Of a DNA stretch of 45,019 nucleotides, positions 132 to 26,852 are shown one piece after another. Location of the stretch: the sequence record MZ234008.1. The stretch is one strand, 5' to 3'. The number at the start of each line of letters is the position of its first letter. Position 1 is the stretch's first letter. The notes beneath the pieces are model-generated. The model was given only the letters and a program-made list of their open reading frames with translations. It did not search any database and had not been told where the DNA came from. Position numbers and translations under genes: made by a program. This stretch comes from Escherichia phage vB_EcoS-22664B1.

Positions 132-437
132 ATGAGAGCATTAATCTGGAAATACTCACGGGCAATAGCGAAGCTGGACGAAGCGAAAAACACAAACGGC
201 AACGTAGACTATGCGCGCCAGTTTGCGGCACGGGCACACCAACACATCATGAGTGCGCTCGACGATATGGACGCCAGCATGGATGACCTGGGTCCGCTGC
301 GTAAGGCTATCCATGAATACGCGCTGGCATTCTCCCGTGAGCGCCTGGCCTATCGCTTCGGTATTGGCGATAAGGCAGTGACAAACGTCGCCCGGATTAA
401 AGCACAGCGCGAACTATTCGCCCAGCTTGCGAAATAA
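132..437 (+). CDS. hypothetical protein (101 aa)
   Basis: Intact ORF with GAGGA RBS-like sequence upstream of ATG; downstream of putative promoter at 75-103. No recognisable motif. Confidence 0.55.
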   Translation: MRALIWKYSRAIAKLDEAKNTNGNVDYARQFAARAHQHIMSALDDMDASMDDLGPLRKAIHEYALAFSRERLAYRFGIGDKAVTNVARIKAQRELFAQLAK

Positions 438-446
438 GGGGCCAAA

Positions 447-716
447 ATGGGCCGTAGACGAGCTAATCAGCTTTCTTGGCATATTCCCCTGCATTGCATA
501 CGAATATGGGCTAAGAACGCGATTGAGGGCGATTCCGTGTACTGGTGCTATCGCGACGATGTGAAGCCACTTACGCAGACTCGCTACTTGCACCAGTTCG
601 CAGCACAACATGGATTCTATGTGCGGACTTCCTTGCAACCAATGGGAATACGTATTACATTACGCCGGAAGCCCGCCGTTGAGCGGGTAGGCAAACACTG
701 GAGACTGCGCAAATGA
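447..716 (+). CDS. hypothetical protein, paralog family member 1 (C-terminal ERVGKHWRLRK)
   Basis: ORF with AAGGGG RBS-like sequence; C-terminus resembles C-terminus of next gene (YTRVGRNATWRLRK); stop overlaps next start (ATGA). Confidence 0.45.
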   Translation: MGRRRANQLSWHIPLHCIRIWAKNAIEGDSVYWCYRDDVKPLTQTRYLHQFAAQHGFYVRTSLQPMGIRITLRRKPAVERVGKHWRLRK

Positions 717-1057
717 TTCGAGTAACCGCACGCCACGAACAATCGGGGGCCACTTACGATGTAATCGACGTTCGCGGCGCGTTCGTCATCTTCGGACGGG
801 GTGACGACCGGCTGGCGCTGCCGATCGGTATGCTGAGCACATACGACTATTTCAAGCATAACGTCCGGTGTGGCGATGTGCTGCGCGATAAGCGCACCGG
901 TGAGCTATGGACGGTGGCGAGTATTTGGGTGAAAGATAAACGGCAGCACACGTTATTGCTCGCCCGCCCGGATTGCAAACAGCAAACTATTAACACTATT
1001 GGCCTGGTGGACTACACCCGCGTAGGCCGTAACGCTACCTGGAGACTGAGAAAATGA
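713..1057 (+). CDS. hypothetical protein, paralog family member 2
   Basis: Shares GDVLRD-R-G-LW-V and RVGR motifs with 1054..1578; ATGA overlap with both neighbours. Confidence 0.55.
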   Translation: MIRVTARHEQSGATYDVIDVRGAFVIFGRGDDRLALPIGMLSTYDYFKHNVRCGDVLRDKRTGELWTVASIWVKDKRQHTLLLARPDCKQQTINTIGLVDYTRVGRNATWRLRK

Positions 1058-1578
1058 AATTACTATTCCGCCGTAAATCAGATGGCTATATCCTGAAGCC
1101 GATCCAGACCTTATCGAACTGGGTACGCCTCCACCACGTTGCAAGCGATAAAGTCTGGTGGGCGACTAAGGCAAAGCTGCCGGAGTACTACGAAATCCTC
1201 ACACACGATATCGAGCGCGGCGATGTGCTGCGGGATATTCGCGACGGGCAATTGTGGGTCGTGGAATACGTGGGTCGGCACGGCCTGCGTATGAAGTCCT
1301 GCAAGGATGTCGTAGCGGGCAACATGGTCACGGGCATGACGTACTTCGGGCTAATCCACTACGAACGAGTGGGCCGCAAATCCCAGCCAGCGTATGCGAC
1401 CTACGACGCCCGCCAGGTGCAGGCCAGACTTAACAAGGCCACGCATGAGATAATTAATCACGTTGATGCCGTGACGAATGCGCAGCGCATGGCCCGCGAA
1501 TACGGCGTAGGATTCATCCGTGTCGAGCAAGACGGCAGCATGTCCGCTATAGACCCGCGCTCGGTAATACTGAAATGA
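1054..1578 (+). CDS. hypothetical protein, paralog family member 3
   Basis: Contains GDVLRDIRDGQLWVV and HYERVGRK segments paralogous to 713..1057. Confidence 0.55.
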   Translation: MKLLFRRKSDGYILKPIQTLSNWVRLHHVASDKVWWATKAKLPEYYEILTHDIERGDVLRDIRDGQLWVVEYVGRHGLRMKSCKDVVAGNMVTGMTYFGLIHYERVGRKSQPAYATYDARQVQARLNKATHEIINHVDAVTNAQRMAREYGVGFIRVEQDGSMSAIDPRSVILK

Positions 1579-1718
1579 GCGCGACTATCCGTGATATGCT
1601 TATGCATAACCGCTTTGAGATAGGCGGGCGAGTATTCTGCAATTACTTCGTGGCGCGTGCTTGGGCGCGCCATATCGGAAAACCAGTAGGGGCAATACGA
1701 TGCTACACGATTTGATAT
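1575..1718 (+). CDS. small hypothetical ORF (47 aa)
   Basis: ATG overlapping stop of preceding gene; short, overlaps next gene start; weak support. Confidence 0.25.
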
Positions 1719-1987
1719 TTTGGTTTGGTTTGGGGTGTGCGTCACTCTTTGTTGTGGTGCTGGCGCTGTTGGTATGGCTATTCCTGGTATGGCCCGCGGT
1801 GGAAGCTGCCAGCATTACCCGCATGACGTTCCAGATATACAAGCGCCGTGGCATAACGGAACACCCGACCAGGTTGCGCATGTGGTGGCTATGGTATCTG
1901 GATATGCTTGGAGGTCGGAGGTTTGAGGCCGTCCGGTCATCCGGGTGGGAATGGAAAGGCGTAGGCAAGTGGTCCATTTTCGATTAA
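1700..1987 (+). CDS. small membrane protein
   Basis: Start MLHDL with AGGGG RBS-like sequence 8 nt upstream; long hydrophobic stretch FWFGLGCASLFVVVLALLVWLFLVW; followed by terminator. Confidence 0.5.
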   Translation: MLHDLIFWFGLGCASLFVVVLALLVWLFLVWPAVEAASITRMTFQIYKRRGITEHPTRLRMWWLWYLDMLGGRRFEAVRSSGWEWKGVGKWSIFD

Positions 1988-2004
1988 ATATGCAAGCGTG
2001 ATAT

Positions 2005-2039
2005 AGTCCCAGTGAGCTAAAACTTACTGGGACTTTTTT
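2005..2039 (+). terminator. rho-independent terminator (agtcccagt...actgggact + T-run)
   Basis: 9-bp inverted repeat followed by TTTTTT directly read from sequence. Confidence 0.6.
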
Positions 2040-2330
2040 ATGGATAAGCTAAACGAGTGGTTATTCGCCCTCGCGTGTCTTGCAGGTGGCTTCGTTGGCG
2101 CTCGCATTCACGGTGAGGCAACGAAAGGGCCACTAAACTTTGTGCTGTTTATCGTGGTCGGCTTCTTGTGTGCCGTGTTCGGTGCACCTGCTATTGCTGA
2201 GTGGTTTAATCTAACCGGACCGAGAACTGTTGCCGGGCTTGGCTTCGTTACTGCCATCTTCTGGATGCCGGTAGCTGCCAGAATCCGTGAAGCAATTTCC
2301 TCGTTCCGTCTGCCGGGGAATGCAAAATGA
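2040..2330 (+). CDS. holin-like small membrane protein
   Basis: 96 aa, two to three hydrophobic helices, immediately upstream of endolysin; function by position. Confidence 0.5.
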   Translation: MDKLNEWLFALACLAGGFVGARIHGEATKGPLNFVLFIVVGFLCAVFGAPAIAEWFNLTGPRTVAGLGFVTAIFWMPVAARIREAISSFRLPGNAK

Positions 2331-2566
2331 TTATCGCCATCCTGTTATTAGTGATCGGGGCTTCGTCGCTGTATAACGTATACGCGCCATCCGTCCAGGA
2401 TGGCATTTGCGGACGGGTGCTCTACCTGCTTACAGCAATGACCTGTATTATTGGCCTGATGCAAACGGGGGACGTATCGAATACAGTCTGGTCCGTGCTA
2501 ATCTGGCTATTCGCATTACGCACACTGCGTAATGCTGTTTTAAATGGGGTAAAACATGCGATTTAG
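2327..2566 (+). CDS. holin/antiholin-like small membrane protein
   Basis: 79 aa, two hydrophobic helices, ATGA overlap with previous gene and overlap with endolysin start. Confidence 0.5.
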   Translation: MIIAILLLVIGASSLYNVYAPSVQDGICGRVLYLLTAMTCIIGLMQTGDVSNTVWSVLIWLFALRTLRNAVLNGVKHAI

Positions 2567-3047
2567 TGACAACGGTCTAAGATTTACGGCAGCGTGGGAG
2601 TCGTTCAGCCCAGTGCCGTATTTCGCGACTAAGAAGGAGCAGGCCCGCGGCTTGTACACCTGGGGCTACGGTCATACTGGCACTAATCCGCCACAGAGCA
2701 TTACCCGCGCGGAAGCGCTGGAGCTACTCAAGCGTGATGTGGCGTATGCCGAGAACTGGGTGAACAAGTACGCACACCCGAGCATCAATCAGGCGCAATT
2801 CGACGCGCTGGTGGATCTGGTAATCAATGCCGGTCAAGGTCCGATCGTACCGGATAACATTGCCAATGACTTCGATGACGCGGTGCGCCTGGGTGATTGG
2901 GCCAAAGTCCGTGCTACGCTGCCGCAGTTCCGCAAGCAAGGCGGTGAAGTGCTCAAGGGCCTGGTACGTCGTGCAATCGGCAGACAGGCGCTATTCGATG
3001 GTAAGCAGTGGGACGTTGCCGAGAAAATCGGTCGTAACGCGGCATAA
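2556..3047 (+). CDS. endolysin, lysozyme-like (GH24/T4-lysozyme-type muramidase)
   Basis: Motif ...WESF...GLYTWGYGHTG... resembles phage lysozyme catalytic region (E ... GYGHTG); located after holin candidates. Confidence 0.75.
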   Translation: MRFSDNGLRFTAAWESFSPVPYFATKKEQARGLYTWGYGHTGTNPPQSITRAEALELLKRDVAYAENWVNKYAHPSINQAQFDALVDLVINAGQGPIVPDNIANDFDDAVRLGDWAKVRATLPQFRKQGGEVLKGLVRRAIGRQALFDGKQWDVAEKIGRNAA

Positions 3048-3063
3048 TAAGAGGAAACACAGT

Positions 3064-3231
3064 ATGTTAAAAAGTATTCTTGATCATAACGCGGACGCGC
3101 TTGCCGCACTGGCTAAAACGGAAGACCCAGGCGCGCGCGCCATTATCGCGGACACTATCAGTCATGCGGGTGTCTTTGACGTGAAGCTGCCAAGCCCGCC
3201 ACCGCCGGAAGAACCAGGCCCAGCGGCATAA
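3064..3231 (+). CDS. hypothetical protein (55 aa, proline-rich C-terminus)
   Basis: AAGAGGA RBS-like sequence before ATG; followed by terminator at 3237-3262. Confidence 0.4.
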   Translation: MLKSILDHNADALAALAKTEDPGARAIIADTISHAGVFDVKLPSPPPPEEPGPAA

Positions 3232-3236
3232 ACACG

Positions 3237-3262
3237 AAGCCCGGTTAATTCCGGGCTTTTTA
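3237..3262 (+). terminator. rho-independent terminator (aagcccgg ttaatt ccgggctt ttttt)
   Basis: Perfect stem-loop plus T-run. Confidence 0.65.
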
Positions 3263-3265
3263 TTG

Positions 3266-3295
3266 CTTGACTTGCAACCAACATAAGGGCCATAC
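3266..3295 (+). promoter_or_regulatory. putative sigma70-like promoter (-35 TTGACT, 18-nt spacer containing TGCAACCAA, -10 CATACT)
   Basis: Hexamer matches read from sequence; spacer carries the recurrent GCAACCAA motif, with a second copy just downstream. Confidence 0.35.
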
Positions 3296-3327
3296 TGCAA
3301 CCAATCAACGAGAAGGAGTAATACACT

Positions 3328-3408
3328 ATGACACGCAATGATATTTATGTACTGGCAATCTGGTCCGCCGCCGCATTCATCGGTATGGCTATTTGCGAAT
3401 TGCTATAG
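3328..3408 (+). CDS. small hydrophobic peptide (26 aa, MTRNDIYVLAIWSAAAFIGMAICELL)
   Basis: Strong RBS-like GAGAAGGAG 8 nt upstream of ATG; not in ORF track because under 60 aa. Confidence 0.3.
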   Translation: MTRNDIYVLAIWSAAAFIGMAICELL

Positions 3409-3470
3409 CCCGCCGCCATAGGGACCGTGGTATATTGTCCTCGGTCCTCTCAATCAGGAAGTAAATTAAT

Positions 3471-4668
3471 ATGCACCCGCAAACTAAAATTACCGACGAG
3501 CAATTGATCGCTGAATTGCAATCTGGCACTACCTCGAAAGATATTGCGAAGAAATACGGCATTGCCCTTCGAAATGTCTATATGCGCAAAGCCCGCCTGT
3601 CGAAGAAAGGCATTGGTCACGGTAACGATGCCGTAATCCGTAAGCGCGTTGCCGATGGCTTCGGCGTTAAGCGTGTATCAGCCCTGGTGCGCGGCAATGG
3701 CGAAGAGGTCATGTCCTGGGTCATCACCGAGCAAGACAAGGAGCGCCAGCTTGAAGCAATGCGCGCCGTTGTCGAGGGCATGAATAGCGAAATCACACCG
3801 GCAGCACCAGTGAGCGCTCCGCCAGTCCCGATCCAGGCGCTTGACCTGCTTAACCTGTATACCGTGTCGGACTTCCACCTGGGAATGTTGGCGTGGGGCG
3901 AGGAGACTGGCGAGGACTGGGATATGGCAATCGCTGAAGACCTGTTCTACCGCTGGTTTGTCGAAGCCTTCGCCCGCGCACCGGACGCTGGAAGACCTGT
4001 TCTACCGCTGGTTTGTCGAAGCCTTCGCCCGCGCACCGGACGCTGGCACTGCCGTAATCAATATTCTCGGTGATATGGCGCATTTTGACAGCCTCGACGC
4101 CGTCACGCCAGCCAGTGGTCACGTACTGGACGCAGATACCCGCTACCAGAAACTGGTCCGCTACATGATTCGCATGGTGCGCAACGTGGTTGAACTGGCG
4201 CTGCAAAAACACCATAAGGTCAAACTGTTAATCGTCCAGGGTAATCATGATGAGTCCGGTATGATTTGGCTGGCTGAGATGTTCAATACCCTGTACGAGA
4301 ACGAGCCGCGCGTTGATGTGGACACGTCCCCGGACGTTTACAAAATGGTGCAGCACGGTAAAACAACGCTGTTCTTCCACCACGGACACAAAGCACGCTT
4401 TGACGCCATCGAACCGGTCATGATTTCTAAATTCAGACAGGCTTTCGGGTCCAGTGAGTACAGCTACGCGCACGTGGGCCACTTGCACCACCAGAAGATT
4501 GTTGAATCCCGCAACATGATTGTTGAACAGCACCGGACCCTTGCCGCGAAAGACGCATATGCGAGCCGCGGCGGTTGGATGTCTGGTCGTAGTGCTAACG
4601 TCATCACCTATAGCGCCAACTACGGCGAAGTAGCGCGCTTAACCATTAGCCCGGAAATGTTGAAATGA
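3471..4668 (+). pseudogene. HTH domain + calcineurin-like metallophosphoesterase gene, split by a 55-bp tandem duplication (frameshift)
   Basis: N-terminal HTH-like segment; metallophosphoesterase motifs SDFHLG, GDMAHFD, GNHDE, HHGH, GHLHH. ORFs 3471..4073 and 3841..4668 are the same gene in two frames; removing one 55-bp copy (3936-3990 or 3991-4045) restores one ORF of about 380 aa. Confidence 0.6.
3936..4045. repeat. perfect tandem duplication, 2 x 55 bp
   Basis: Unit gaagacctgttctaccgctggtttgtcgaagccttcgcccgcgcaccggacgctg occurs twice in tandem; cgctg microhomology at the junction. Confidence 0.9.
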
Positions 4669-4877
4669 TTAGACAAGTATTCATGAGCACGCAGGCCACC
4701 CGCCTGAAAGAGCTTCGCAAACAGCTTGAAGGCTTGCGCCGATTCGAACGAACGGCAGCGGCAATAGGCATGTCTATCAGTGAGCGGATCGAGATACTAT
4801 CGCAGATACGCTACACAGAAGGCGCTATAAGCGAAGTAGAAAGCATGTTGACCAGATACTACGGTCGAGCCGTTTAA
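4665..4877 (+). CDS. hypothetical protein (70 aa)
   Basis: ORF overlapping previous stop (ATGA); followed by terminator. Confidence 0.45.
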   Translation: MIRQVFMSTQATRLKELRKQLEGLRRFERTAAAIGMSISERIEILSQIRYTEGAISEVESMLTRYYGRAV

Positions 4878-4884
4878 CCCTCCC

Positions 4885-4910
4885 AGCCCGCCGATTTGGT
4901 GGGCTTTTTT
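4885..4910 (+). terminator. rho-independent terminator
   Basis: agcccgcc / ggtgggct stem (one G-U) followed by TTTTTT. Confidence 0.5.
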
Positions 4911-4994
4911 GTGCCTGTTATAATCCCCCTTAGATGGCTGGGCCGTCTCCTATGTTGCCGATGGTCGGCGCATATGCATAAAAGGGCTTATATC

Positions 4995-5546
4995 ATGGCA
5001 GAAATCAAAGTTAAGGGCCGTCGTGCCAAACTGGACGGACGAGTAGCAGTTACCCCGCGCCGTAAACCAGGCGAGCAAACAGAACACACCAATCTTGGAC
5101 CAGAGATCGAATACGGCAAGCGTCGTAAAGGCGGCAAATGCGGACGCCCGACCGACTACCGCACCGTGTATTGTGACCAGCTTCGTCGCTATTTCGCCGA
5201 TGCCGTAGCCTGGCAGATCAACTACTCCGACAAGGGCGCTGCGCAAGTCATCCCTCGAAACATGATGCCGACTCTCGGTCGATTCGCTGCAAATATTGGT
5301 GTAGGCATCGCCTGCCTGTATCGCTGGGCGCGCGCACATGAGGAGTTCGCCGAAGCGATGGCGGACGCTATGGAGTTGCAGAAAACTTTCCTGATGGAAG
5401 CTGGCGGCGTGACCATCGCGGCGGGCTTCGCTACGTTCCTGCTTAAAGCCAACCACGGCATTCGTGACGATGCGCCGCTGGATGACGACGAAGATGATAA
5501 CGGCGACGTCGTTGTGGAACCTACCGGCAAAGGCCAGGGTGAGTAA
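4995..5546 (+). CDS. terminase small subunit (putative)
   Basis: Position immediately upstream of TerL with overlapping stop/start; basic N-terminal region, acidic C-terminus; assignment mainly by synteny. Confidence 0.5.
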   Translation: MAEIKVKGRRAKLDGRVAVTPRRKPGEQTEHTNLGPEIEYGKRRKGGKCGRPTDYRTVYCDQLRRYFADAVAWQINYSDKGAAQVIPRNMMPTLGRFAANIGVGIACLYRWARAHEEFAEAMADAMELQKTFLMEAGGVTIAAGFATFLLKANHGIRDDAPLDDDEDDNGDVVVEPTGKGQGE

Positions 5547-6931
5547 TGCGTAACTATGCGGCAGAACACCGCGCACTTGAACGCGCGATCGCAAAGCGCA
5601 ACCGACCGCCACGCCCTACGCGCGTTGCGCAGGCCGTCCGCCTGTATCAGCCTGATTGCCTTCCGCACCAGGTAGAACTGCTGCGCGACACGAAGACTAA
5701 AATCCTCGGCCTTTGCTCCGGCTTCGGTGGCGGAAAGTCGTGGGTAGCGGCGCGTAAGGTCATCCAGCTTCTCACACTTAACCCCGGTCATGATGGCATC
5801 GTTACAGAACCGACTATTCCACTCCTGGTTAAAATCATGTACCCGGAGCTTGAGAAGGCATTCGACGAGGCTGGATTCCGGTGGAAGTTCAACAAGCAAG
5901 ACAAGATTTATAGCGTGCTGGTGAAAGGCAAATGGACCCGCGTTATTTGTGAGTCAATGGAGAACTACACCCGCCTGATCGGGGTTAACGCCGCGTGGAT
6001 TGTTGCCGATGAGTTCGACACCACTAAGCAAGACGTAGCTATGGCGGCATATCACAAATTGCTTGGTCGTCTGCGTGCGGGCCTGGTGCGCCAGTTCGTC
6101 ATCGTATCCACGCCTGAAGGCTTCCGGGCGATGTACCAGATTTTCGAAGTGGAGAAGGATAGCCAGAAACGTTTGATCAGGGCGAAGACTACCGATAATC
6201 ACCACTTACCGGCAGACTTTATCGACACGCTGCGGAGCCAGTACCCGGCAAACCTGATTGATGCATACCTGAACGGCCTGTTTGTCAACCTTACGTCTGG
6301 CGCGGTCTACAAGATGTTTAACCGCGAAGAGAACGCCAGCACCGAGGAAGTGCAACCGGATGATACGCTGATTATCGGTATGGACTTTAACGTAACGAAA
6401 ATGGCGGCGGTTGTGTACGTCAGACGGCAGCACACTACCGAGAACAAGGAGTTCCGCGACGAGATTCACGCAGTGGATGAATTCGTGGACCTGTTTGATA
6501 CCCCGGCTATGATTGAGGCGATCGAGGAGCGCTACCCCGATCATTGTGCTGCCGGTCGGGTCGTCGTTTACCCGGATAGCAGTGGCAAGTCTCGTAAGAC
6601 TGTTAACGCATCGTCGTCCGATATCGCGCAACTGGAAGACGCTGGCTTCGAGGTGGAGTATGACAGCGTCAACCCGCCTGTAAAAGACAGATTGATCGCG
6701 ATGAATACGATGATGTGCAACTCGAAGGGCGTGCGCCAGTATTTTGTCAACATGGATAAATGCCCTACACTAGCGAAATGTCTGGAACAGCAGGTTTATG
6801 ACCTGAAGAAAGGCGAGCCGGATAAAACCGCCGGTGTGGACCACATGAACGATGCCGCAGGCTACCCTGTTGCGCACCTGTTCCCAGTGATTCGTCCAAT
6901 CGCCGTTGTTCCAACTGTAGACTTCTACTAA
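5546..6931 (+). CDS. terminase large subunit
   Basis: Walker A-like LCSGFGGGKS and Walker B-like IVADEFD ATPase motifs plus C-terminal nuclease-sized domain; 461 aa. Confidence 0.85.
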   Translation: MRNYAAEHRALERAIAKRNRPPRPTRVAQAVRLYQPDCLPHQVELLRDTKTKILGLCSGFGGGKSWVAARKVIQLLTLNPGHDGIVTEPTIPLLVKIMYPELEKAFDEAGFRWKFNKQDKIYSVLVKGKWTRVICESMENYTRLIGVNAAWIVADEFDTTKQDVAMAAYHKLLGRLRAGLVRQFVIVSTPEGFRAMYQIFEVEKDSQKRLIRAKTTDNHHLPADFIDTLRSQYPANLIDAYLNGLFVNLTSGAVYKMFNREENASTEEVQPDDTLIIGMDFNVTKMAAVVYVRRQHTTENKEFRDEIHAVDEFVDLFDTPAMIEAIEERYPDHCAAGRVVVYPDSSGKSRKTVNASSSDIAQLEDAGFEVEYDSVNPPVKDRLIAMNTMMCNSKGVRQYFVNMDKCPTLAKCLEQQVYDLKKGEPDKTAGVDHMNDAAGYPVAHLFPVIRPIAVVPTVDFY

Positions 6932-6941
6932 GGAAACGACC

Positions 6942-8462
6942 ATGACCGTTAACGTTGACAACCAGCACCCACTCTATGCGCGCATCGCGCAGGAATGGAA
7001 AATGATCCGGGATTGCGTAGCAGGGGAGCGCGCCGTGAAGGCGTGCGGCCCCTTATACCTGCCACACCCAGCCAGTGGCGACAATACCGACCCGAAAGCA
7101 CGGGCGCGATATAAGGCATATAAGCAACGTGCTGTATTCCTGAACGCCACCGCACGTACACTTAACGCGCTGTTAGGCGTTGCCTTCGCTAAGCCGGTTA
7201 GCGTGGACCTTACCGGGGCGATGGCTGACCTGATTGATGACGTAGACGGCAGCGGGATGCCACTGGCGCAACTCCTGCGCGGTGCTATGTCTGAAGTGCT
7301 GCAATCTGGCCGCGCGGGCTTTATGGTGGACTACGACCGCCAGGCTAACTTTGATGAACTGGGTAACGTAGTGCCGCAGACCGCCGCCGAGATGGCGACG
7401 CATCGCCCGCTTATCCGCCTGTATACGGCAGAACAGATCATCAACTGGCGGCAGACCCACGGTGTTGATACGCTAATCGTGCTGAAGGAGACGGACGAAA
7501 TCAGCACCGAAGACCCGGACGACTTTGCAAACCACGAAGTAACGATCTGGACCGAGCTTCGCATGGTTGACGGCAAGGCACACGCCCGCCGCTGGTTTTA
7601 CAACGCGGACACGTCCGAGGTGCAAATGGACTTGCCGCGCGGATTCACCCGCACCGACCTTGTACCTTTGGTAGATGCTGCCGGTCGGGCGCTTACTCAA
7701 CTGCCATTTTGCTGGTGTGGTGCAGTGGACAACAACGCCACGCCGGACGCCGCGCCGCTGGCGGATATTGCATCCATCAACATTAAGCACTACAACGCTG
7801 AGGCGGACGTCGCCGAGATTGCGCACATCGTGGGCCAGCCTACCCTGGTTGCCACGGGCTTGACTCAATCATGGGCCGACAAAAACCTGAAGGGTGGCAT
7901 CGCTCTCGGTGCGACTAAGGGCGTTATCCTGGGCCAGAACATGGACGCTAAACTGATTCAGGCCGAGGAGCGCAACTTGTCTGTTGCACTTTGTGAGCGC
8001 CGCGAATTGCAGATGGCTAAACTGGGCGCGGCCCTGGTTGAGAAGGGGACCGCACCGAAGACGGCAACCGAAGCGGCCTACGATGCGCAGACTGATAACA
8101 GTATCTTGTCGCTCATTGCCGGTAACGTTGAGAAGGCTTTCAACCGTGCGCTGCAAATCGTCCAGCTATTCACCGGTGACACCGCAGTGCAGCAAGTCAC
8201 GTTGAACAAGTTCTACACCGAAATCACGGTTGACGCGCAGCTTATGACCGCAATGATGTCAGGTGTGCAGACTGGCACGGTCCGACTGGCTGACTTTATC
8301 AAGTGGATGATGGCGCAGGGCGTTATCGACGACTCGCAAACCGTCGAGCAGGTGGAAGACGAATTGCGAAATCAGAATCCATTGCCTCAAATGTCCCCTG
8401 ATGCGGTAGAATCTACCGAAGAAGACCCGGACAAGGTAACGGACAATGGCGAGAACAATTAA
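6942..8462 (+). CDS. portal protein
   Basis: 506-aa ORF immediately after TerL with acidic C-terminus; size and synteny typical of portal. Confidence 0.75.
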   Translation: MTVNVDNQHPLYARIAQEWKMIRDCVAGERAVKACGPLYLPHPASGDNTDPKARARYKAYKQRAVFLNATARTLNALLGVAFAKPVSVDLTGAMADLIDDVDGSGMPLAQLLRGAMSEVLQSGRAGFMVDYDRQANFDELGNVVPQTAAEMATHRPLIRLYTAEQIINWRQTHGVDTLIVLKETDEISTEDPDDFANHEVTIWTELRMVDGKAHARRWFYNADTSEVQMDLPRGFTRTDLVPLVDAAGRALTQLPFCWCGAVDNNATPDAAPLADIASINIKHYNAEADVAEIAHIVGQPTLVATGLTQSWADKNLKGGIALGATKGVILGQNMDAKLIQAEERNLSVALCERRELQMAKLGAALVEKGTAPKTATEAAYDAQTDNSILSLIAGNVEKAFNRALQIVQLFTGDTAVQQVTLNKFYTEITVDAQLMTAMMSGVQTGTVRLADFIKWMMAQGVIDDSQTVEQVEDELRNQNPLPQMSPDAVESTEEDPDKVTDNGENN

Positions 8463-9549
8463 TCAACATATGGCGGATCGTATGATTCGCCGTCACATCT
8501 TCACCCAGCGCCTGAGCAATGACCAGGCGCGAAGGGTGCTGACTATGTGGGAGAAGTTCCGGCCCACGTTACTTGGTAAGCTGACCGAGTTACTTGATGG
8601 CAAAAAGTCCATGAATAACAAGGCACTGACCACACTGTTAACGCAAATCGACAAGACCGTCAAAACGGAACTGCGCACCGAGTTTAAGGCGCTGGCTGAA
8701 AGCCTTCAGGAGTTCGCCGACACGGAGGCTGATTATCTTGCCGATACATTAACGGCAGCGATCCAGCCAGCGGTCGCCGTACCGGCTGTTGAGGTTGTTG
8801 GCGTAGTGACTGGCGCGCAGATCGCAGCGACGGCTATGAAAAACCCATTCCAGGGTAACACCATGATGCAATGGCCCGATTCACTTTCGGAGTGGACCAG
8901 GACGCAGATCGGTAATCAGGTGCGCGCTGGATTCATCCAGGGCAAGCCGACTATGGAAATTATCGCGGACGTAAGGCGCGCTCTCGGCGGTCGTAGTGCG
9001 CAGGCAATCTCAAGCGTTGTTAAGTCCGCAGTAAACCACTATGCGGCGACCGCCCGCGAATTAATGGTAAAAGCTAATGACGATATTCTCGAAGGTCGCC
9101 AATGGTTGGCTACATTGGATACGCATACTTCTCCCATGTGCCAGCTACGCGATCGCCTGTTTTATCCAGTTGATGTTACTCCCGACACCAAAGGAAAGCG
9201 CGGCGGGAAAGTGGTGGCTGGGTCACAATATGGCGCTGGTCCGGGCAAGCTGCATTATTGCTGCCGGTCTACGGAGACGTGGAAAGTCAAAGGCATGGAA
9301 GATTGGCCCAGTGGTAAGCGTCCGGCACTGAAGGCTGACGCGGGTCGATTGCTGAGTGAGCAGGTCGACGCGCAGACTGATTTCTTCTCATGGGTGCAGC
9401 GCCAGCCGCGCTATATTCTGGAGGAATTATATGGGGTGCAGCGCGCAGACCAGATTATGCGCGGCGTGAAAGTGCCGAATATGTTCACCGATACTGGCGA
9501 ACTAATGACTATCGCACAGCTTAAAAACCGGGGGTTATGGCGTGATTAA
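8446..9549 (+). CDS. head morphogenesis / minor capsid protein (Mu F / SPP1 gp7-like, putative)
   Basis: 367-aa ORF directly downstream of portal, overlapping its end; assignment by synteny. Confidence 0.5.
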   Translation: MARTINQHMADRMIRRHIFTQRLSNDQARRVLTMWEKFRPTLLGKLTELLDGKKSMNNKALTTLLTQIDKTVKTELRTEFKALAESLQEFADTEADYLADTLTAAIQPAVAVPAVEVVGVVTGAQIAATAMKNPFQGNTMMQWPDSLSEWTRTQIGNQVRAGFIQGKPTMEIIADVRRALGGRSAQAISSVVKSAVNHYAATARELMVKANDDILEGRQWLATLDTHTSPMCQLRDRLFYPVDVTPDTKGKRGGKVVAGSQYGAGPGKLHYCCRSTETWKVKGMEDWPSGKRPALKADAGRLLSEQVDAQTDFFSWVQRQPRYILEELYGVQRADQIMRGVKVPNMFTDTGELMTIAQLKNRGLWRD

Positions 9550-9850
9550 ATATGCAGCGATTGGACTGGTTATCGGTCTGGCGGTTGGATTCTGGCAGGG
9601 TGATTCCTACCGCACTGGCGTTGTGGCGAAAGCGGCGCAAGAAGCGCAAGCCGAAGCCCAACGGCAGCAAACTAAGGTTGTTGAGGGGTCGGTGAAGGCT
9701 GAGCAAGCCCGCGACGTGGAATACCGGACTATCACGAAAGAGGTTGTAAAATATGTTACGCGTCCTAACCGTCCTGATTGTAGTTTTGATGCTGAGCGCG
9801 TGCGGATCAAGCAAAGCGCCATCGACGCCGCTAACCGAGTCGGTCTATAG
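9542..9850 (+). CDS. i-spanin (Rz-like) candidate
   Basis: N-terminal TM helix (YAAIGLVIGLAVGFW) followed by charged coiled-coil-like region AKAAQEAQAEAQRQQ; contains an embedded +1 frame lipoprotein gene. Confidence 0.5.
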   Translation: MIKYAAIGLVIGLAVGFWQGDSYRTGVVAKAAQEAQAEAQRQQTKVVEGSVKAEQARDVEYRTITKEVVKYVTRPNRPDCSFDAERVRIKQSAIDAANRVGL

Positions 9851-9983
9851 ACCGCCTTGCACCTTTGAGAATGCCTCGGCAGATCCAGACGAGGACTTGC
9901 TTGTTGATGTTAAAAATATGGAATGCGGGGCTAAGCTGAGGGCGCAAGTGCTGGAGTTGCAGAAAATAATTCGGGGGCCGTAA
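9753..9983 (+). CDS. o-spanin (Rz1-like outer-membrane lipoprotein) candidate
   Basis: Signal peptide with lipobox LSAC (MLRVLTVLIVVLMLSAC), proline-containing mature part; starts inside the i-spanin gene in another frame and extends past its stop. Confidence 0.55.
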   Translation: MLRVLTVLIVVLMLSACGSSKAPSTPLTESVYRPPCTFENASADPDEDLLVDVKNMECGAKLRAQVLELQKIIRGP

Positions 9984-9996
9984 TGGCCCCCTTTTT
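9973..9996. terminator. bidirectional rho-independent terminator (gggggcc gtaat ggccccc + T-run)
   Basis: Stem-loop with T5 on + strand; lies between convergent genes 9753..9983 (+) and 9998..10762 (-). Confidence 0.65.
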
Positions 9997-9997
9997 G

Positions 9998-10762
9998 TTA
10001 GCGCGGAATACCGCAAATCTCGTTTAACGTCTTCACGTCCAGCGCTACTGCCGTTGACTTCGGCTTGTCCGGGTATGGAATGAACTGTTCAACTTCAGGC
10101 CACGCCGCGATCAGCTTCTTGTCAGTATTGTGCATATCCAGCACGCCGGTAACAGTTAGTTTGAACGCGTCATACTTCGCACGCAATTCACGGCGGGCCT
10201 TGTCGTTGCGGTCCAGGCGCTTGCAGAAATCATGATCTGCCGGGTAGTCTACGCGACCGCGCGGGAGATATATCGGCAGCGCGGCCCCGTTCTCGTCCAC
10301 TTCACACACTGACGCGAGCATAACTTCCTCGTACCCCGGTACTATATCGCTGAGATCCGGCGCGAGCGTATTCATATATTTCTCTTCCCAGTATCCGCGG
10401 TGCTGGCGGTAGCGGTATCCGTCGCCGCTCATATGCAGGGTACGGATGTTACCGCCTGCGTTGATTTCGAAAGTGGAGCAGTAAACGCGTCCAATGCCTT
10501 TCGTCCGGTCCTTGTTATAGCTGTACGACGCTTTCTCGGTGTAAACGCTGACGCCGTACATCTGCGACTGGTTATCGCGGATTTCTGCGATATATGCGCG
10601 TAGCTCGGCGAACGTGTGAATGCCTTTTGGCATACAGTGCAACGTAATGTCATACGCCAGGTCGCGAGAGTCCATCATGATTTTTTTGGCTTCAGTCGCG
10701 ATTTCGTGGTCGCGCAGGATGTTAGCCAGAATCTGGTTTTTAATGTCTTTTGTCAGTCTCAT
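9998..10762 (-). CDS. hypothetical protein (254 aa), opposite-strand gene island in structural module
   Basis: Intact ORF; start MRLTKD with GAGGA RBS-like sequence; own putative promoter at 10792-10821; no motif recognised. Confidence 0.6.
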   Translation of the reverse strand: MRLTKDIKNQILANILRDHEIATEAKKIMMDSRDLAYDITLHCMPKGIHTFAELRAYIAEIRDNQSQMYGVSVYTEKASYSYNKDRTKGIGRVYCSTFEINAGGNIRTLHMSGDGYRYRQHRGYWEEKYMNTLAPDLSDIVPGYEEVMLASVCEVDENGAALPIYLPRGRVDYPADHDFCKRLDRNDKARRELRAKYDAFKLTVTGVLDMHNTDKKLIAAWPEVEQFIPYPDKPKSTAVALDVKTLNEICGIPR

Positions 10763-10791
10763 TTGTGTGTCCTCATTGTTGGTGTGCAACC

Positions 10792-10821
10792 AATATAGTG
10801 CAACCAATACCTGGATTGCAA
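10792..10821 (-). promoter_or_regulatory. putative sigma70-like promoter (-35 TTGCAA, 18-nt spacer with TTGGTTGCA, -10 TATATT) for 9998..10762
   Basis: Read on - strand; same architecture as promoter at 30187-30216 (shared block tatagtgcaaccaa ... ttgcaag ... aattttgc). Confidence 0.4.
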
Positions 10822-10911
10822 GCGAATTTTGCGATTATTTTTATCGCTGATAATATTAGAGGCGTGAAGTCGAGCGGGTGGCCCGCTCTGCCACAATCCC
10901 AGGGGGATAGC

Positions 10912-11616
10912 ATGAAACTTACTAAAGCAGAATATGACGCGTTGCCGGAAAGTATGAAGGCGCTCTTTGTTGCCGATGGCGACGGGTATAAATCAACATT
11001 TATGTCCGCTGACGAAGTACAGGCGGAAATCAAGGGTCTGAAAGACAACAACGCAAAGCTGGTGAGCGAGAAGAAAGCAGAAGCTGAACGCCGCGCCGAA
11101 GCCGAGCGCCTTGCGAAAGAGAAAGAGGAAGCCGCCGCGCGCAAAAATGGCGACCTCGAAGCGATCGATAAGTCCTGGAAGGATAAGTTTGCAAAACACG
11201 AAGCAGACACATCGGGGAAAATCGAATCCTATCGCAAGCAGATCCATGACCTTACTATCGGCAGCGCTGCCAAAGACCTGGCCTCGAAGCTATTCGGTAA
11301 GAATGCTGGCATCATGCAACGCCACGTAATGGAGCGCCTCGCGCTGGAAGACGGCGAAGACGGCAGCTTGAAAGTGCGTGTCTTGCAGGATGGCAAACCG
11401 TCCGCGTTGACTATGGACGAGCTTGAAAAAGAGTTCCGTAATAACGCTGATTTTGCATCCGTCCTGGCTGGCACGCCAGCCGGTGGCGCACCGAGCAAAC
11501 CGACACAGGTTATCGAAGATGCGAAGTCTAAAATCACGATGGGCCATAGCTTCGGTATCACCGACCTGACGAAACAGGCAGGGGATATCATCGCTAAGAT
11601 GGGCGACGACGAGTAA
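10912..11616 (+). CDS. scaffolding protein (putative)
   Basis: 234-aa ORF rich in charged/helical segments (AEAERRAEAERLAKEKEEAAARK) immediately upstream of major capsid gene; AGGGGGA RBS-like sequence. Confidence 0.55.
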   Translation: MKLTKAEYDALPESMKALFVADGDGYKSTFMSADEVQAEIKGLKDNNAKLVSEKKAEAERRAEAERLAKEKEEAAARKNGDLEAIDKSWKDKFAKHEADTSGKIESYRKQIHDLTIGSAAKDLASKLFGKNAGIMQRHVMERLALEDGEDGSLKVRVLQDGKPSALTMDELEKEFRNNADFASVLAGTPAGGAPSKPTQVIEDAKSKITMGHSFGITDLTKQAGDIIAKMGDDE

Positions 11617-11620
11617 GCAG

Positions 11621-11646
11621 ATCGCCCGCGAAAGCGGGCGATTTTG
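11621..11646 (+). terminator. rho-independent terminator (atcgcccgc gaaa gcgggcgat tttg)
   Basis: 9-bp perfect stem, GAAA tetraloop, short T-run. Confidence 0.5.
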
Positions 11647-11713
11647 CGAGCGCGTAAATCTAAGGTAACATTAACGTCACTGGGCGAATGCTCACAACTC
11701 AAAGGATTTCGAT

Positions 11714-25640: not shown

Positions 25641-25665
25641 AAGGGGCCATCCGGCCCCTTTTTTA
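25641..25665. terminator. rho-independent terminator (aggggcc atcc ggcccct + T-run), between convergent genes
   Basis: Stem-loop with T6 on + strand; the - strand gene 25663..26637 ends right beside it. Confidence 0.65.
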
Positions 25666-26637
25666 ATAGATATTAGGAATGACGAGTAACGGGGTGGGTA
25701 CGGCAATATTTTTGCCCGGCATTTGGAATTGCTGCCGTGAGTAGTTGCCAATGACGCGGTTTTTGGCGATGCGCACATTATTACCCGCCATTCGTATCCC
25801 GTTCATGCGCACATGGTTATAGCCGCTGTTGTTCTCAATGAGCGCACCGGTATATGAAAGCTGGATCAGACTATTACCGATGTGCTGGTCGCCGCCACCG
25901 ATATTAATCGTGCGGTCGTAGACAAACGGCTTGTTTACCGTCGAGAACGTGACCTGCCCCTGGTTGTTAGTCATGGTGATACCGGTCCCCGGTGAGGGCG
26001 GCGTATTGTTGAATATCACCAGGTCCATATCAACGGCAGCGCCTACGTCGTCAATCCCGCCATAGGACGCATTACGGACAATGATACTTCCGCCATCGAA
26101 GCCAACCGATACGTTGCCGTCGTCCCAGCGCGCGAACGGGACACCGCCGACGGGAAGCGGCATACTTCCGTTTACATGCACGCGCTGCGCATATCGGCAG
26201 GTCATTAGCCGTGCGACGTTGGATATTGCGGTGAAGTCCGTTGAGTTAGCTACCAGTAAGCCCGCATTGCGTGACCCCACCGGCAGCACTTCCATAATCA
26301 CCCCGCCCCATGTTGGAAGCCCGCTGTATGCGTTATAGGCATCCTCACCGCGCAAGGTGATTCCGCCATCCCCGTTACGTTGTATCGACGTCACATAAAA
26401 CGGGTCTGGCAAGACCAGGGTCTGGTCGAATACTTCCATCACTTCTACCGGATTAGTTAGGGCAACGACCAGTTCGGACCCCGGTGTCAGCGGTGTGTTA
26501 ATGGTCAGCGTCTTGTCAGACTGACAGCGCTGATTAAAGGTAGTGCAGAACGACGGAGCGCGAAGGCCCGCGGTTATCTCCATGACAGGTCTACCGTCGT
26601 TGTAGTCGATAAGTATTCCAGCACCCATTATTACCAC
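25663..26637 (-). CDS. hypothetical protein (324 aa), possible tail/receptor-binding-associated protein
   Basis: Intact - strand ORF between J-like gene and tail fibre; Gly/Asn/Thr-rich, beta-rich composition; function unknown. Confidence 0.5.
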   Translation of the reverse strand: MVIMGAGILIDYNDGRPVMEITAGLRAPSFCTTFNQRCQSDKTLTINTPLTPGSELVVALTNPVEVMEVFDQTLVLPDPFYVTSIQRNGDGGITLRGEDAYNAYSGLPTWGGVIMEVLPVGSRNAGLLVANSTDFTAISNVARLMTCRYAQRVHVNGSMPLPVGGVPFARWDDGNVSVGFDGGSIIVRNASYGGIDDVGAAVDMDLVIFNNTPPSPGTGITMTNNQGQVTFSTVNKPFVYDRTINIGGGDQHIGNSLIQLSYTGALIENNSGYNHVRMNGIRMAGNNVRIAKNRVIGNYSRQQFQMPGKNIAVPTPLLVIPNIY

Positions 26638-26852
26638 TCCCGTGATTTAACTGATACAGTACCTGAGAAATTGCCGTCGCTATCGGCAGATAGGCCAGTG
26701 AAGCGCATGTCCACGTCTCCGGCAGGGACTTTTTGCCCGTCAACATAACGCAACATGCAGCTTCCGTAAGCCACCGTAATGCAATCACCGTTGTTGCGTT
26801 CTACGGCACAACCGGACAAAAGAACAGCACAAATCATAATTAAAGTTTTCAT
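26631..26852 (-). CDS. small lipoprotein (73 aa; possible superinfection-exclusion lipoprotein)
   Basis: Start MKTLIMICAVLLSGC with lipobox LSGC and AGGAG RBS-like sequence; first gene of the two-gene - strand cassette. Confidence 0.6.
   Translation of the reverse strand: MKTLIMICAVLLSGCAVERNNGDCITVAYGSCMLRYVDGQKVPAGDVDMRFTGLSADSDGNFSGTVSVKSREW

What the first reader, a model, noticed from the sequence alone, without database searches (positions are those of the whole stretch)
9542..9983. Lysis functions split between two loci: overlapped spanin pair about 6.5 kb from holin/endolysin
Holin-like genes and the lysozyme-type endolysin sit at 2040-3047, whereas a candidate i-spanin (N-terminal TM helix plus coiled-coil region) with an embedded +1 frame lipoprotein o-spanin (lipobox LSAC) sits at 9542-9983, between head morphogenesis and scaffold genes. 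Lysis cassettes are usually contiguous; a split suggests rearrangement or separate regulation. The i-spanin candidate is short (102 aa), so the assignment needs testing.
Basis: partly seen in the sequence, partly recalled or inferred. Interest (0 to 1): 0.5.

Follow-up and report, generated by a model that had tools for sequence, protein, structure and literature searches.

The report
Known phage spanin pair, away from holin
The two overlapping genes are real and almost certainly make the inner- and outer-membrane "spanin" proteins that break the host outer membrane at lysis. This pair and its position away from the other lysis genes are already catalogued for this phage group, so the finding is correct but ordinary.

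Summary
The window is a Dhillonvirus coliphage, 100% identical over 8400-11700 to Escherichia phage vB_EcoS-101114B2. ORF 9542-9850 (GTG start, 102 aa) has an N-terminal membrane helix. ORF 9753-9983 (76 aa) lies in the +1 frame and has a lipobox LSAC with Cys17. The o-spanin gene runs 133 nt past the i-spanin stop, so the pair is overlapped by 98 nt, not embedded.

Both ORFs are intact in 16 of 16 relatives and vary mainly at third codon positions. They match PHROG "Rz-like spanin" families 2536 and 5672/1267. They are 39-47% identical to the spanins of Jerseyvirus and Kagunavirus phages. More distant relatives of the pair sit directly after endolysin and holin genes.

Kongari et al. 2018 already list HK578-like phages in the overlapped "Jersey" spanin family and describe its shorter subfamily. 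BASEL phage records annotate i-spanin and o-spanin at this position. The gene order holins-endolysin, packaging, portal, head morphogenesis, spanins, scaffold is shared by three genera, so the split is old, not a recent rearrangement. Separate transcription is plausible from hairpins alone and remains untested. No member of this family has been tested experimentally as far as I found.

Verdict: already known, low interest.

The parts
9542..9850 (+). i-spanin gene (102 aa, GTG start). It has an N-terminal membrane helix at about residues 2-19, a long predicted helix, a linker RPNRPDC containing Cys80, and a short C-terminal helix.
   Evidence: ORF and translation. Hydropathy. PHROG 2536 'Rz-like spanin', E 5.7e-34. 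39-41% identical to Jerseyvirus and Kagunavirus i-spanins, with Cys80 and the motif ITxEVxKYVxxPxRxxCxF conserved. Intact in 16 of 16 relatives with third-position bias. The AF2 secondary structure is low confidence.
9753..9983 (+). o-spanin gene (76 aa). It has a 16-residue signal peptide, lipobox LSAC, lipid-modified Cys17 and Gly at +2. The mature protein is 60 aa with 6 Pro, Cys36, Cys58 and a C-terminal amphipathic stretch.
   Evidence: Lipobox and composition. PHROG 5672 E 1.2e-25 and PHROG 1267 E 2.5e-12, both 'Rz-like spanin'. 45-47% identical to Jerseyvirus and Kagunavirus o-spanins, with all three Cys invariant. Intact in 16 of 16 relatives.
9753..9850 (+). Dual-coding overlap of 98 nt. 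It encodes the i-spanin C-terminus in frame 0 and the o-spanin signal peptide plus first mature residues in frame +1.
   Evidence: Frame offset 1 and overlap 98 nt. The fraction of variable sites is lower here (0.20) than in the single-coding parts (0.27 and 0.30).
9530..9549 (+). Translation start region of the i-spanin. A GGGGG Shine-Dalgarno-like run at 9530-9534 precedes the GTG start at 9542. The start lies within GTGATTAA, which also holds the head-morphogenesis stop codon TAA (9547-9549), giving an 8-nt stop/start overlap.
   Evidence: Sequence. GTGATTAA is invariant in 16 of 16 relatives. The same overlap is annotated in phage Oekolampad (3452-4555 and 4548-4856).
9973..9991 (.). GC-rich hairpin followed by a T-run, with the o-spanin stop codon in its loop. 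It is terminator-like on both strands and lies between the convergent o-spanin and Nmad5 genes.
   Evidence: Scan hit with 8 pairs, 7 of them GC, on the + strand, and a hit on the - strand. Conserved in relatives. Annotated as a terminator by the authors of phage WFI.
2040..2330 (+). Holin-like gene 1 (96 aa, at least 2 hydrophobic helices).
   Evidence: PHROG 2359 holin, E 1.5e-32. Hydropathy.
2327..2566 (+). Holin-like gene 2 (79 aa, 2 hydrophobic helices).
   Evidence: PHROG 2508 holin, E 1.4e-24. Hydropathy.
2556..3047 (+). Endolysin (163 aa, lysozyme type, with no N-terminal hydrophobic signal-anchor).
   Evidence: Pfam PF00959, 77.5 bits against a cut-off of 22.3. PHROG 7 endolysin. No hydrophobic segment.
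8446..9549 (+). Context: head-morphogenesis (MuF/SPP1 gp7-like) gene, whose stop overlaps the i-spanin start.
   Evidence: PHROG 241, E 1.9e-114.
10912..11616 (+). Context: head scaffolding gene downstream of the spanins.
   Evidence: PHROG 206, E 2e-50.

Best explanation
Genes 9542-9850 and 9753-9983 encode a two-component spanin of the 'Jersey' family, short subfamily, in the overlapped arrangement.

**Shown by the data:**
- Both genes are real and under purifying selection.
- The first product has an N-terminal membrane helix.
- The second product has an outer-membrane-type lipoprotein signal.
- Both are homologous to catalogued spanin pairs.
- More distant homologous pairs sit directly after endolysin and holin genes.

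**Inferred from what is established for lambda Rz/Rz1:**
- The i-spanin is anchored in the inner membrane.
- The o-spanin is lipidated on Cys17 and sorted to the outer membrane.
- The two bind through their C-terminal parts and form disulfide-linked dimers through Cys80, Cys36 and Cys58.
- The complexes wait in the envelope, threaded through the peptidoglycan.
- Once the holins (2040-2566) release the endolysin (2556-3047) and the wall is degraded, the complexes fuse the inner and outer membranes.

The spanin genes are the last genes of the packaging, portal and head-morphogenesis gene block, and the i-spanin start overlaps the upstream stop codon. I infer that they are made together with late structural proteins.

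Spanins are held inactive by the cell wall until the endolysin acts. They therefore need no tight genetic linkage to the holin and endolysin genes, which would explain why the split is stable. The split is ancestral to Dhillonvirus, Jerseyvirus and Kagunavirus.
For: - **Family matches:** PHROG 2536 (E 5.7e-34) for the i-spanin, and PHROG 5672 and 1267 (E 1.2e-25 and 2.5e-12) for the o-spanin, all named 'Rz-like spanin'.
- **Sequence features:** a membrane helix at residues 1-19, lipobox LSAC with Cys17, Gly at +2, 6 prolines in the 60-aa mature o-spanin, and periplasmic cysteines in both proteins.
- **Conservation:** both ORFs are intact in 16 of 16 relatives with third-position bias. Competing ORFs are not conserved: 1/16, 6/16 and 5/16 intact.
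- **Homology to catalogued spanins:** 39-47% identity to annotated Jerseyvirus and Kagunavirus spanins, with invariant cysteines.
- **Gene context in distant relatives:** the homologous overlapped pair lies directly after the lysozyme gene in Klebsiella phage 2 LV-2017. It lies after endolysin and holin genes in Vibrio phage pYD38-A.
- **Prior cataloguing:** Kongari 2018 lists HK578, JL1, SSL-2009a, EP23 and SO-1 in the Jersey overlapped family. HK578 is 89% identical to this i-spanin. BASEL records annotate i-spanin and o-spanin at this position.
- **Shared synteny:** the same split gene order is found in Shelanagig and fKuEco01. Published SeF1 and Golestan have the same gene-number layout, and SeF1 has the same four PHROGs.
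- **No alternative near the endolysin:** the 55-aa gene after the endolysin has no membrane helix or lipobox.
Against: - I found no experimental test of any member of this spanin family. Function rests on homology, sequence features and gene context.
- There is no match to the Pfam lambda Rz or Rz1 models. The NCBIfam P2 LysC model scores only 14.4 bits against a cut-off of 27.
- The i-spanin membrane helix is glycine-rich and only moderately hydrophobic, with Kyte-Doolittle window means of 1.6-1.95.
- The i-spanin is at the short end of its family. It lacks the C-terminal IPGYDD..AVQ tail found in most relatives.
- The AF2 model is low confidence, with mean pLDDT 57.
- Nothing here shows when the genes are transcribed.
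Confidence: 0.9

Rival explanations
1. The two proteins are not lysis proteins. The small membrane protein would serve head assembly or packaging at the membrane. The lipoprotein would be an accessory protein, for example a superinfection-exclusion lipoprotein like Cor or T5 Llp, that happens to overlap it.
For: The pair sits inside the head gene block, and the i-spanin start overlaps the head-morphogenesis stop codon. No experiment exists for this family. The i-spanin is short. Pfam models for lambda Rz and Rz1 do not match.
Against: Both partners co-occur and co-vary as a pair across distant phages. In Klebsiella phage 2 LV-2017 and Vibrio phage pYD38-A, the pair lies directly after endolysin and holin genes. 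All significant PHROG hits of both proteins are spanin families. The phage has a separate Cor-like lipoprotein candidate at 26631-26852. Without this pair the phage would have no recognisable outer-membrane disruptor.
Confidence: 0.05
2. The split reflects a recent rearrangement in this phage that moved the spanins away from an originally contiguous lysis cassette.
For: Contiguous cassettes are the textbook arrangement. Distant members of the same spanin family are contiguous with endolysin genes.
Against: The same order is seen in every Dhillonvirus whose surroundings were examined: the closest record, Oekolampad and WFI. That order is holins-endolysin, then terminase, portal, head morphogenesis, spanins, scaffold. 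It is also seen in the Jerseyvirus Shelanagig and, for the spanin position, in the Kagunavirus fKuEco01. Of 158 phage records with a match, 143 cover at least 80% of 8400-11700. Any relocation therefore predates the divergence of these genera.
Confidence: 0.03
3. One or both ORFs are chance open reading frames, and the real gene is the 47-aa ORF 9552-9695 annotated in the closest GenBank record.
For: MZ234014 annotates the 47-aa ORF and not the 102-aa ORF.
Against: The 47-aa ORF is intact in only 1 of 16 relatives. Its variable sites peak at its own codon position 2 (6/27/14), which is position 3 of the i-spanin frame. Its ATG is lost in several relatives.
Confidence: 0.01

Closest known systems
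Jersey family of overlapped two-component spanins (Kongari et al. 2018, PMC6139136), short subfamily EP23 to SO-1; HK578, JL1 and SSL-2009a are among the listed family members
   Same: Both subunits are homologous. HK578 is 89% identical in the i-spanin. Jerseyvirus and Kagunavirus are 39-41% identical in the i-spanin and 45-47% in the o-spanin. The architecture is overlapped, the cysteines are conserved, and the position after the head-morphogenesis gene is the same.
   Different: The overlap is 98 nt here, against 155 bp reported for Jersey. The i-spanin is 102 aa against 128 aa, through small deletions in the first helix region and loss of the C-terminal tail. In this clade the i-spanin stops 7 codons earlier than in the HK578 clade, 102 against 109 aa.
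Lambda Rz/Rz1 (prototype two-component spanin)
   Same: Same predicted parts: a type II inner-membrane protein, an outer-membrane lipoprotein encoded in the +1 frame of the same DNA, and periplasmic cysteines. The presumed mechanism is the same: membrane fusion after wall degradation.
   Different: There is no detectable sequence membership, as the Pfam Rz and Rz1 models do not match. The gene is overlapped, not embedded. The i-spanin is shorter and the o-spanin longer: lambda Rz is 153 aa with a 40-aa mature Rz1 (my own knowledge). The pair is not adjacent to the holin and endolysin genes.
T4 PseT.3/PseT.2 spanins
   Same: The spanin genes lie far from the holin and endolysin genes. The i-spanin is short (117 aa) and is paired with a comparatively large o-spanin (83 aa) that has a predicted C-terminal helix.
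   Different: The T4 genes are in the 'separated' arrangement, not overlapped. No sequence similarity was detected here. The lysis genes of T4-like phages are not clustered.
P2 LysB/LysC (prototype overlapped spanin)
   Same: Overlapped arrangement, with the o-spanin gene extending past the i-spanin stop.
   Different: The NCBIfam LysC model scores 14.4 bits against a cut-off of 27. The P2 genes are part of a contiguous lysis cassette (my own knowledge).

Membership tests
Two-component spanin (class as defined by Summer 2007 and Kongari 2018) | i-spanin: a small protein with a single N-terminal transmembrane helix and a periplasmic domain that is mostly helical | tested here: met
   One hydrophobic segment at residues 1-19. 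AF2 predicts helices 3-72 and 84-97, at low confidence (pLDDT 57).
Two-component spanin (class as defined by Summer 2007 and Kongari 2018) | o-spanin: an outer-membrane lipoprotein signal, meaning a lipobox with Cys and no Asp at +2 | tested here: met
   VLIVVLMLSAC fits the PROSITE-type pattern, with Cys17 and Gly at +2. The lipobox is LSAC or MSAC in 16 of 16 relatives. Actual processing was not tested.
Two-component spanin (class as defined by Summer 2007 and Kongari 2018) | The o-spanin gene is embedded in, overlapping, or directly after the i-spanin gene | tested here: met
   Overlapped, +1 frame, 98 nt shared.
Two-component spanin (class as defined by Summer 2007 and Kongari 2018) | Periplasmic cysteines available for intermolecular disulfide bonds | tested here: met
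   Cys80 in the i-spanin and Cys36 and Cys58 in the o-spanin are invariant across three genera. Cys80 is nearly invariant in 43 distant representatives. Disulfide formation itself was not tested.
Two-component spanin (class as defined by Summer 2007 and Kongari 2018) | Required for outer-membrane disruption, shown by a lysis defect or by complementation of lambda Rz/Rz1 | not testable with these tools
   This needs phage genetics. I found no published test for this family.
Jersey spanin family (Kongari 2018) | Sequence homology of both subunits to the family members | tested here: met
   Listed member HK578 is 89% identical. The Jerseyvirus Shelanagig is 41% (i) and 47% (o) identical, and the Kagunavirus fKuEco01 is 39% and 45%. 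Published Jerseyvirus SeF1 has the same PHROGs, 2536 and 5672.
Lambda Rz (Pfam PF03245) and Rz1 (Pfam PF06085) | Match to the Pfam family model above the gathering score | tested here: not met
   No hit to either model at E up to 0.1. None of 43 distant representatives of the i-spanin family hit PF03245 at E up to 0.01.
P2 LysC (NCBIfam NF038368) | Match above the curated cut-off | tested here: not met
   14.4 bits against a cut-off of 27.
Contiguous lysis cassette (lambda type) | Holin, endolysin and spanin genes adjacent in one cluster | tested here: not met
   6494 nt, containing about seven other genes, separate the endolysin stop from the i-spanin start.

The most novel reading that the evidence does not exclude
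The spanin pair may be what is left of an ancestral complete lysis cassette that sat after the head-morphogenesis gene. That arrangement is seen today in Vibrio phage pYD38-A: portal, head morphogenesis, three reverse genes, endolysin, holin, spanins. In this reading the holin and endolysin genes later moved or were replaced upstream of the terminase. The invariant stop/start overlap with the head-morphogenesis gene would now tie spanin dosage to head-protein translation, which would be a real regulatory feature.
Probability: 0.15. Interest if true: 0.3.

Novelty: already known. Interest (0 to 1): 0.12.

Why it matters
The finding has little value as a discovery. This spanin family, its overlapped architecture, its short subfamily and its position in these genomes are already in the literature and in GenBank annotations.

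Its practical value is in annotation. The closest GenBank record (MZ234014) misses the i-spanin, annotates a non-conserved 47-aa ORF in its place, and labels the o-spanin only as 'hypothetical protein'. The o-spanin is also largely absent from protein databases, with 6 clusters against 61 for the i-spanin.

The case also illustrates that spanin genes can sit stably inside a structural operon. That fits the established view that spanins are controlled by the cell wall and not by their own timing.

Tried and rejected
- **Pfam and NCBIfam scans of both proteins:** no hit to the lambda Rz or Rz1 models, and only a sub-threshold hit to P2 LysC.
- **Solved structures:** only chance-level ribosomal protein hits at E 0.3 or worse.
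- **AlphaFold2 on the i-spanin with 25 close homologues:** mean pLDDT 57 and pTM 0.22. This is too weak for a fold search, so only the secondary structure was used, with caution.
- **Exhaustive HMMER search of 1.84 billion representatives:** 44 small proteins of about 80-165 aa with the same layout, but none linking to a Pfam Rz model.
- **A second spanin or other outer-membrane disruptor near the endolysin:** the 55-aa gene 3064-3231 is acidic, soluble and proline-rich at its end, with no membrane helix or lipobox. I rejected it.
- **Lipoprotein ORF 26631-26852:** considered as an alternative o-spanin and rejected. It is weakly Cor-like, lies after the tail genes, and has no partner with an N-terminal helix in the right arrangement.
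- **Alternative ORFs in the region:** the 47-aa ORF on the + strand and the 97-aa and 71-aa ORFs on the - strand are not conserved.
- **Literature:** searches for an experimental test of this family, or an explicit discussion of the split in these genera, found only genome descriptions. The Cahill and Young 2019 review is not held in the library.
Full report
**What the window is.** Region 8400-11700 is 100% identical to Escherichia phage vB_EcoS-101114B2 (MZ234014, genus Dhillonvirus). In total, 158 phage records match it at 80-100% identity.

Genes from 132 to 9983 lie on the + strand. In order they include:
- two holin-like genes (2040-2330, 2327-2566);
- a lysozyme-type endolysin (2556-3047);
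- small and large terminase;
- portal;
- a head-morphogenesis gene (8446-9549);
- the two ORFs of the finding.

After these come a reverse-strand Nmad5 gene (9998-10762), the scaffold gene (10912-11616) and the major capsid gene.

**Checking the observation.**
- ORF 9542-9850 starts with GTG. It encodes 102 aa with a single N-terminal hydrophobic segment, IKYAAIGLVIGLAVGFW.
- ORF 9753-9983 encodes 76 aa that begin MLRVLTVLIVVLMLSAC. This fits the standard lipoprotein signal pattern, with Cys17 followed by Gly. Asp at +2 is the inner-membrane retention signal in E. coli (established knowledge), so Gly predicts sorting to the outer membrane.
- The second ORF is in the +1 frame, shares 98 nt with the first, and continues 133 nt beyond it. 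The arrangement is overlapped, not embedded.
- The distance from the endolysin stop to the i-spanin start is 6494 nt.

**Are they real genes?** I aligned the region from 15 other Dhillonvirus genomes at 87-95% nucleotide identity.
- Both ORFs are intact in all 16 sequences.
- Variable sites fall on codon positions 1/2/3 as 15/6/36 in the i-spanin-only part and 8/4/27 in the o-spanin-only part.
- The shared 98 nt vary less (0.20 of sites) than either single-coding part (0.27 and 0.30).
- The 47-aa ORF 9552-9695, which the closest GenBank record annotates in place of the i-spanin, is intact in only 1 of 16 sequences. Its variation pattern is out of frame. The antisense ORFs are intact in 5-6 of 16.
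- A six-frame scan of the whole window for lipoprotein signals found one other ORF I judged convincing, at 26631-26852 on the - strand. It is weakly Cor-like and unrelated to this locus.

**What they are.**
- *Family matches.* The i-spanin matches PHROG 2536 (E 5.7e-34). The o-spanin matches PHROG 5672 (E 1.2e-25) and PHROG 1267 (E 2.5e-12). All three are named 'Rz-like spanin'.
- *Relatives in other genera.* The i-spanin is 41% and 39% identical to the annotated i-spanins of the Jerseyvirus Shelanagig and the Kagunavirus fKuEco01. It shares the motif ITxEVxKYVxxPxRxxCxF and an invariant Cys80. The o-spanin is 47% and 45% identical, with invariant Cys17, PPC (Cys36), D-x-DEDL and EC (Cys58).
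- *Breadth of the family.* An exhaustive search of 1.84 billion representative proteins found 44 relatives. All are small (about 80-165 aa), and nearly all have an N-terminal hydrophobic segment and the same conserved C-terminal block.
- *Gene context, the most telling functional evidence.* In Klebsiella phage 2 LV-2017, the homologous overlapped pair follows the lysozyme gene downstream of the Q antiterminator. There the i-spanin is 120 aa and the o-spanin is 80 aa with lipobox LCSC. In Vibrio phage pYD38-A, the pair follows endolysin and holin genes (i 126 aa, o 81 aa, lipobox ISGC).
- *No alternative near the endolysin.* Nothing next to the endolysin in this window could replace a spanin. 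The 55-aa gene 3064-3231 has no membrane helix or lipobox.

**What is already known.**
- Kongari et al. 2018 list HK578, JL1, SSL-2009a, EP23 and SO-1 in the overlapped 'Jersey' family for both subunits. They describe a second, shorter i-spanin subfamily (EP23 to SO-1) and note two constant o-spanin cysteines.
- HK578 is 89% identical to this i-spanin.
- BASEL phage records (Oekolampad, KarlBarth and others) annotate i-spanin and o-spanin at exactly this position, with help from the spanin database.
- UniRef names the protein I-spanin.
- A Dhillonvirus paper lists endolysin, two holins and an Rz-like spanin with non-adjacent gene numbers.
- Jerseyvirus SeF1 is described with spanins gp9 and gp10 (PHROG 2536 and 5672) and holins gp63 and gp64 (PHROG 2359 and 2508). 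These are the same four PHROGs as here.
- Kagunavirus Golestan has spanins at ORF7-8 and holins plus endolysin at ORF66-68.

**The split.** The order in Shelanagig is holin, endolysin (39644-40400), genome end, terminase, portal, capsid morphogenesis, i-spanin and o-spanin (6023-6518), scaffold, capsid. fKuEco01 has the spanins at the same position. The split is therefore ancestral to at least three genera and is not a recent rearrangement.

Precedents for unlinked spanin genes are known. T4 pseT.3 and pseT.2 are not near the holin or endolysin genes. T7 18.5 and 18.7 lie among packaging genes (my own knowledge).

**Regulation.**
- Strong terminator-like hairpins lie at 2005-2034, 3236-3259, 4885-4905 and 9973-9991. 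The authors of phage WFI annotated the equivalent sites as terminators.
- These hairpins would place the holin-endolysin cluster and the terminase-to-spanin block in separate units. The scan found no more terminator-like sites than shuffled sequence gives (15 against 13.4), and no transcript data exist.
- The i-spanin GTG lies within GTGATTAA, which contains the head-morphogenesis stop codon. This is invariant in 16 of 16 genomes and is preceded by a GGGGG run. It suggests translational coupling, which is an inference.
- The o-spanin stop codon sits in the loop of the 9973-9991 hairpin, which is conserved.

**How it most likely works.** This section is inferred from the lambda model. The i-spanin is anchored in the inner membrane with about 83 residues in the periplasm. 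The o-spanin is lipidated on Cys17 and sorted to the outer membrane, leaving 60 mature residues. The two bind through their C-terminal parts and are stabilised by disulfide-linked homodimers.

The complexes accumulate during late expression and are held in check by the peptidoglycan mesh. The holins then release the soluble endolysin, which has no signal-anchor segment, and the wall is degraded. The complexes are then free to bring the two membranes together and fuse them.

A rough length estimate (my own arithmetic) gives about 20 nm or more, similar to the width of the periplasm:
- a helix of about 53 residues at 0.15 nm per residue;
- the linker and the second helix;
- about 40 extended proline-rich o-spanin residues.

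The short i-spanin is therefore not a problem, and the longer o-spanin compensates, as in T4.

**Limits.** No member of this family has been tested experimentally as far as I could find. The proteins are not sequence members of the lambda Rz/Rz1 or P2 LysC families. The structure model is low confidence.

**Verdict.** Novelty: already known. Interest: low.

Noticed in passing
window 3932-4046 (within 3471-4668): A 55-nt unit is present in 2.1 tandem copies here, but only once in MZ234014 and in all other relatives. The extra copy shifts the frame. It splits the PHROG 704 'DNA repair exonuclease' (calcineurin-like phosphoesterase) gene into ORFs 3471-4073 and 3841-4668. It could be a real inactivating mutation or an assembly artefact.
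   Followed up: partly
window 9998-10762 (- strand) and 9973-9991: A reverse-strand gene with a full-length Nmad5 domain (PF18757, 190 bits) is wedged between the o-spanin and the scaffold gene. It converges on a hairpin that looks like a terminator on both strands. Some relatives (WF5505, rolling, 101114BS4) carry a second reverse gene there, annotated 'DNA polymerase III beta subunit'. This looks like a variable accessory-gene spot inside the head module.
   Followed up: partly
window 9552-9695: The closest GenBank record (MZ234014) annotates a 47-aa ORF here and omits the 102-aa i-spanin. It labels the o-spanin 'hypothetical protein gp6'. The 47-aa ORF is intact in 1 of 16 relatives, so this is a mis-annotation.
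   Followed up: yes
window 26631-26852 and 25663-26637 (- strand): A 73-aa lipoprotein (MKTLIMICAVLLSGC...; PHROG 4281, with a weak hit to PHROG 1119 'Cor superinfection exclusion', E 6e-4) is followed by a 324-aa 'membrane protein' of the moron class (PHROG 1265). Both lie just after the tail-tip gene. They are a likely superinfection-exclusion pair.
   Followed up: partly
window 9753-9983: The o-spanin has only 6 clusters in the 5.8-billion-protein collection, against 61 for the i-spanin. This fits the report by Kongari et al. that gene callers often miss overlapped o-spanin genes.
   Followed up: no
window 2005-2034, 3236-3259, 4885-4905: Strong terminator-like hairpins bracket the holin-endolysin cluster and precede the small terminase gene. 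The equivalent sites are annotated as terminators in phage WFI. If they work, late transcription of this phage is cut into several short units, or it needs read-through.
   Followed up: no
window 3064-3231: The 55-aa gene after the endolysin (PHROG 11068, unknown function) is acidic with a proline-rich end. In phage WFI the same position holds a 137-aa protein with a Big_2 Ig-like domain. The last position of the lysis cluster is therefore variable.
   Followed up: no
L021 (Vibrio phage pYD38-A) 1727-5337: In this distant relative the whole lysis set (endolysin, holin, and the overlapped spanin pair of the same family) lies shortly after the head-morphogenesis gene. This hints that the head-module position of the spanins may be the older one.
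   Followed up: no
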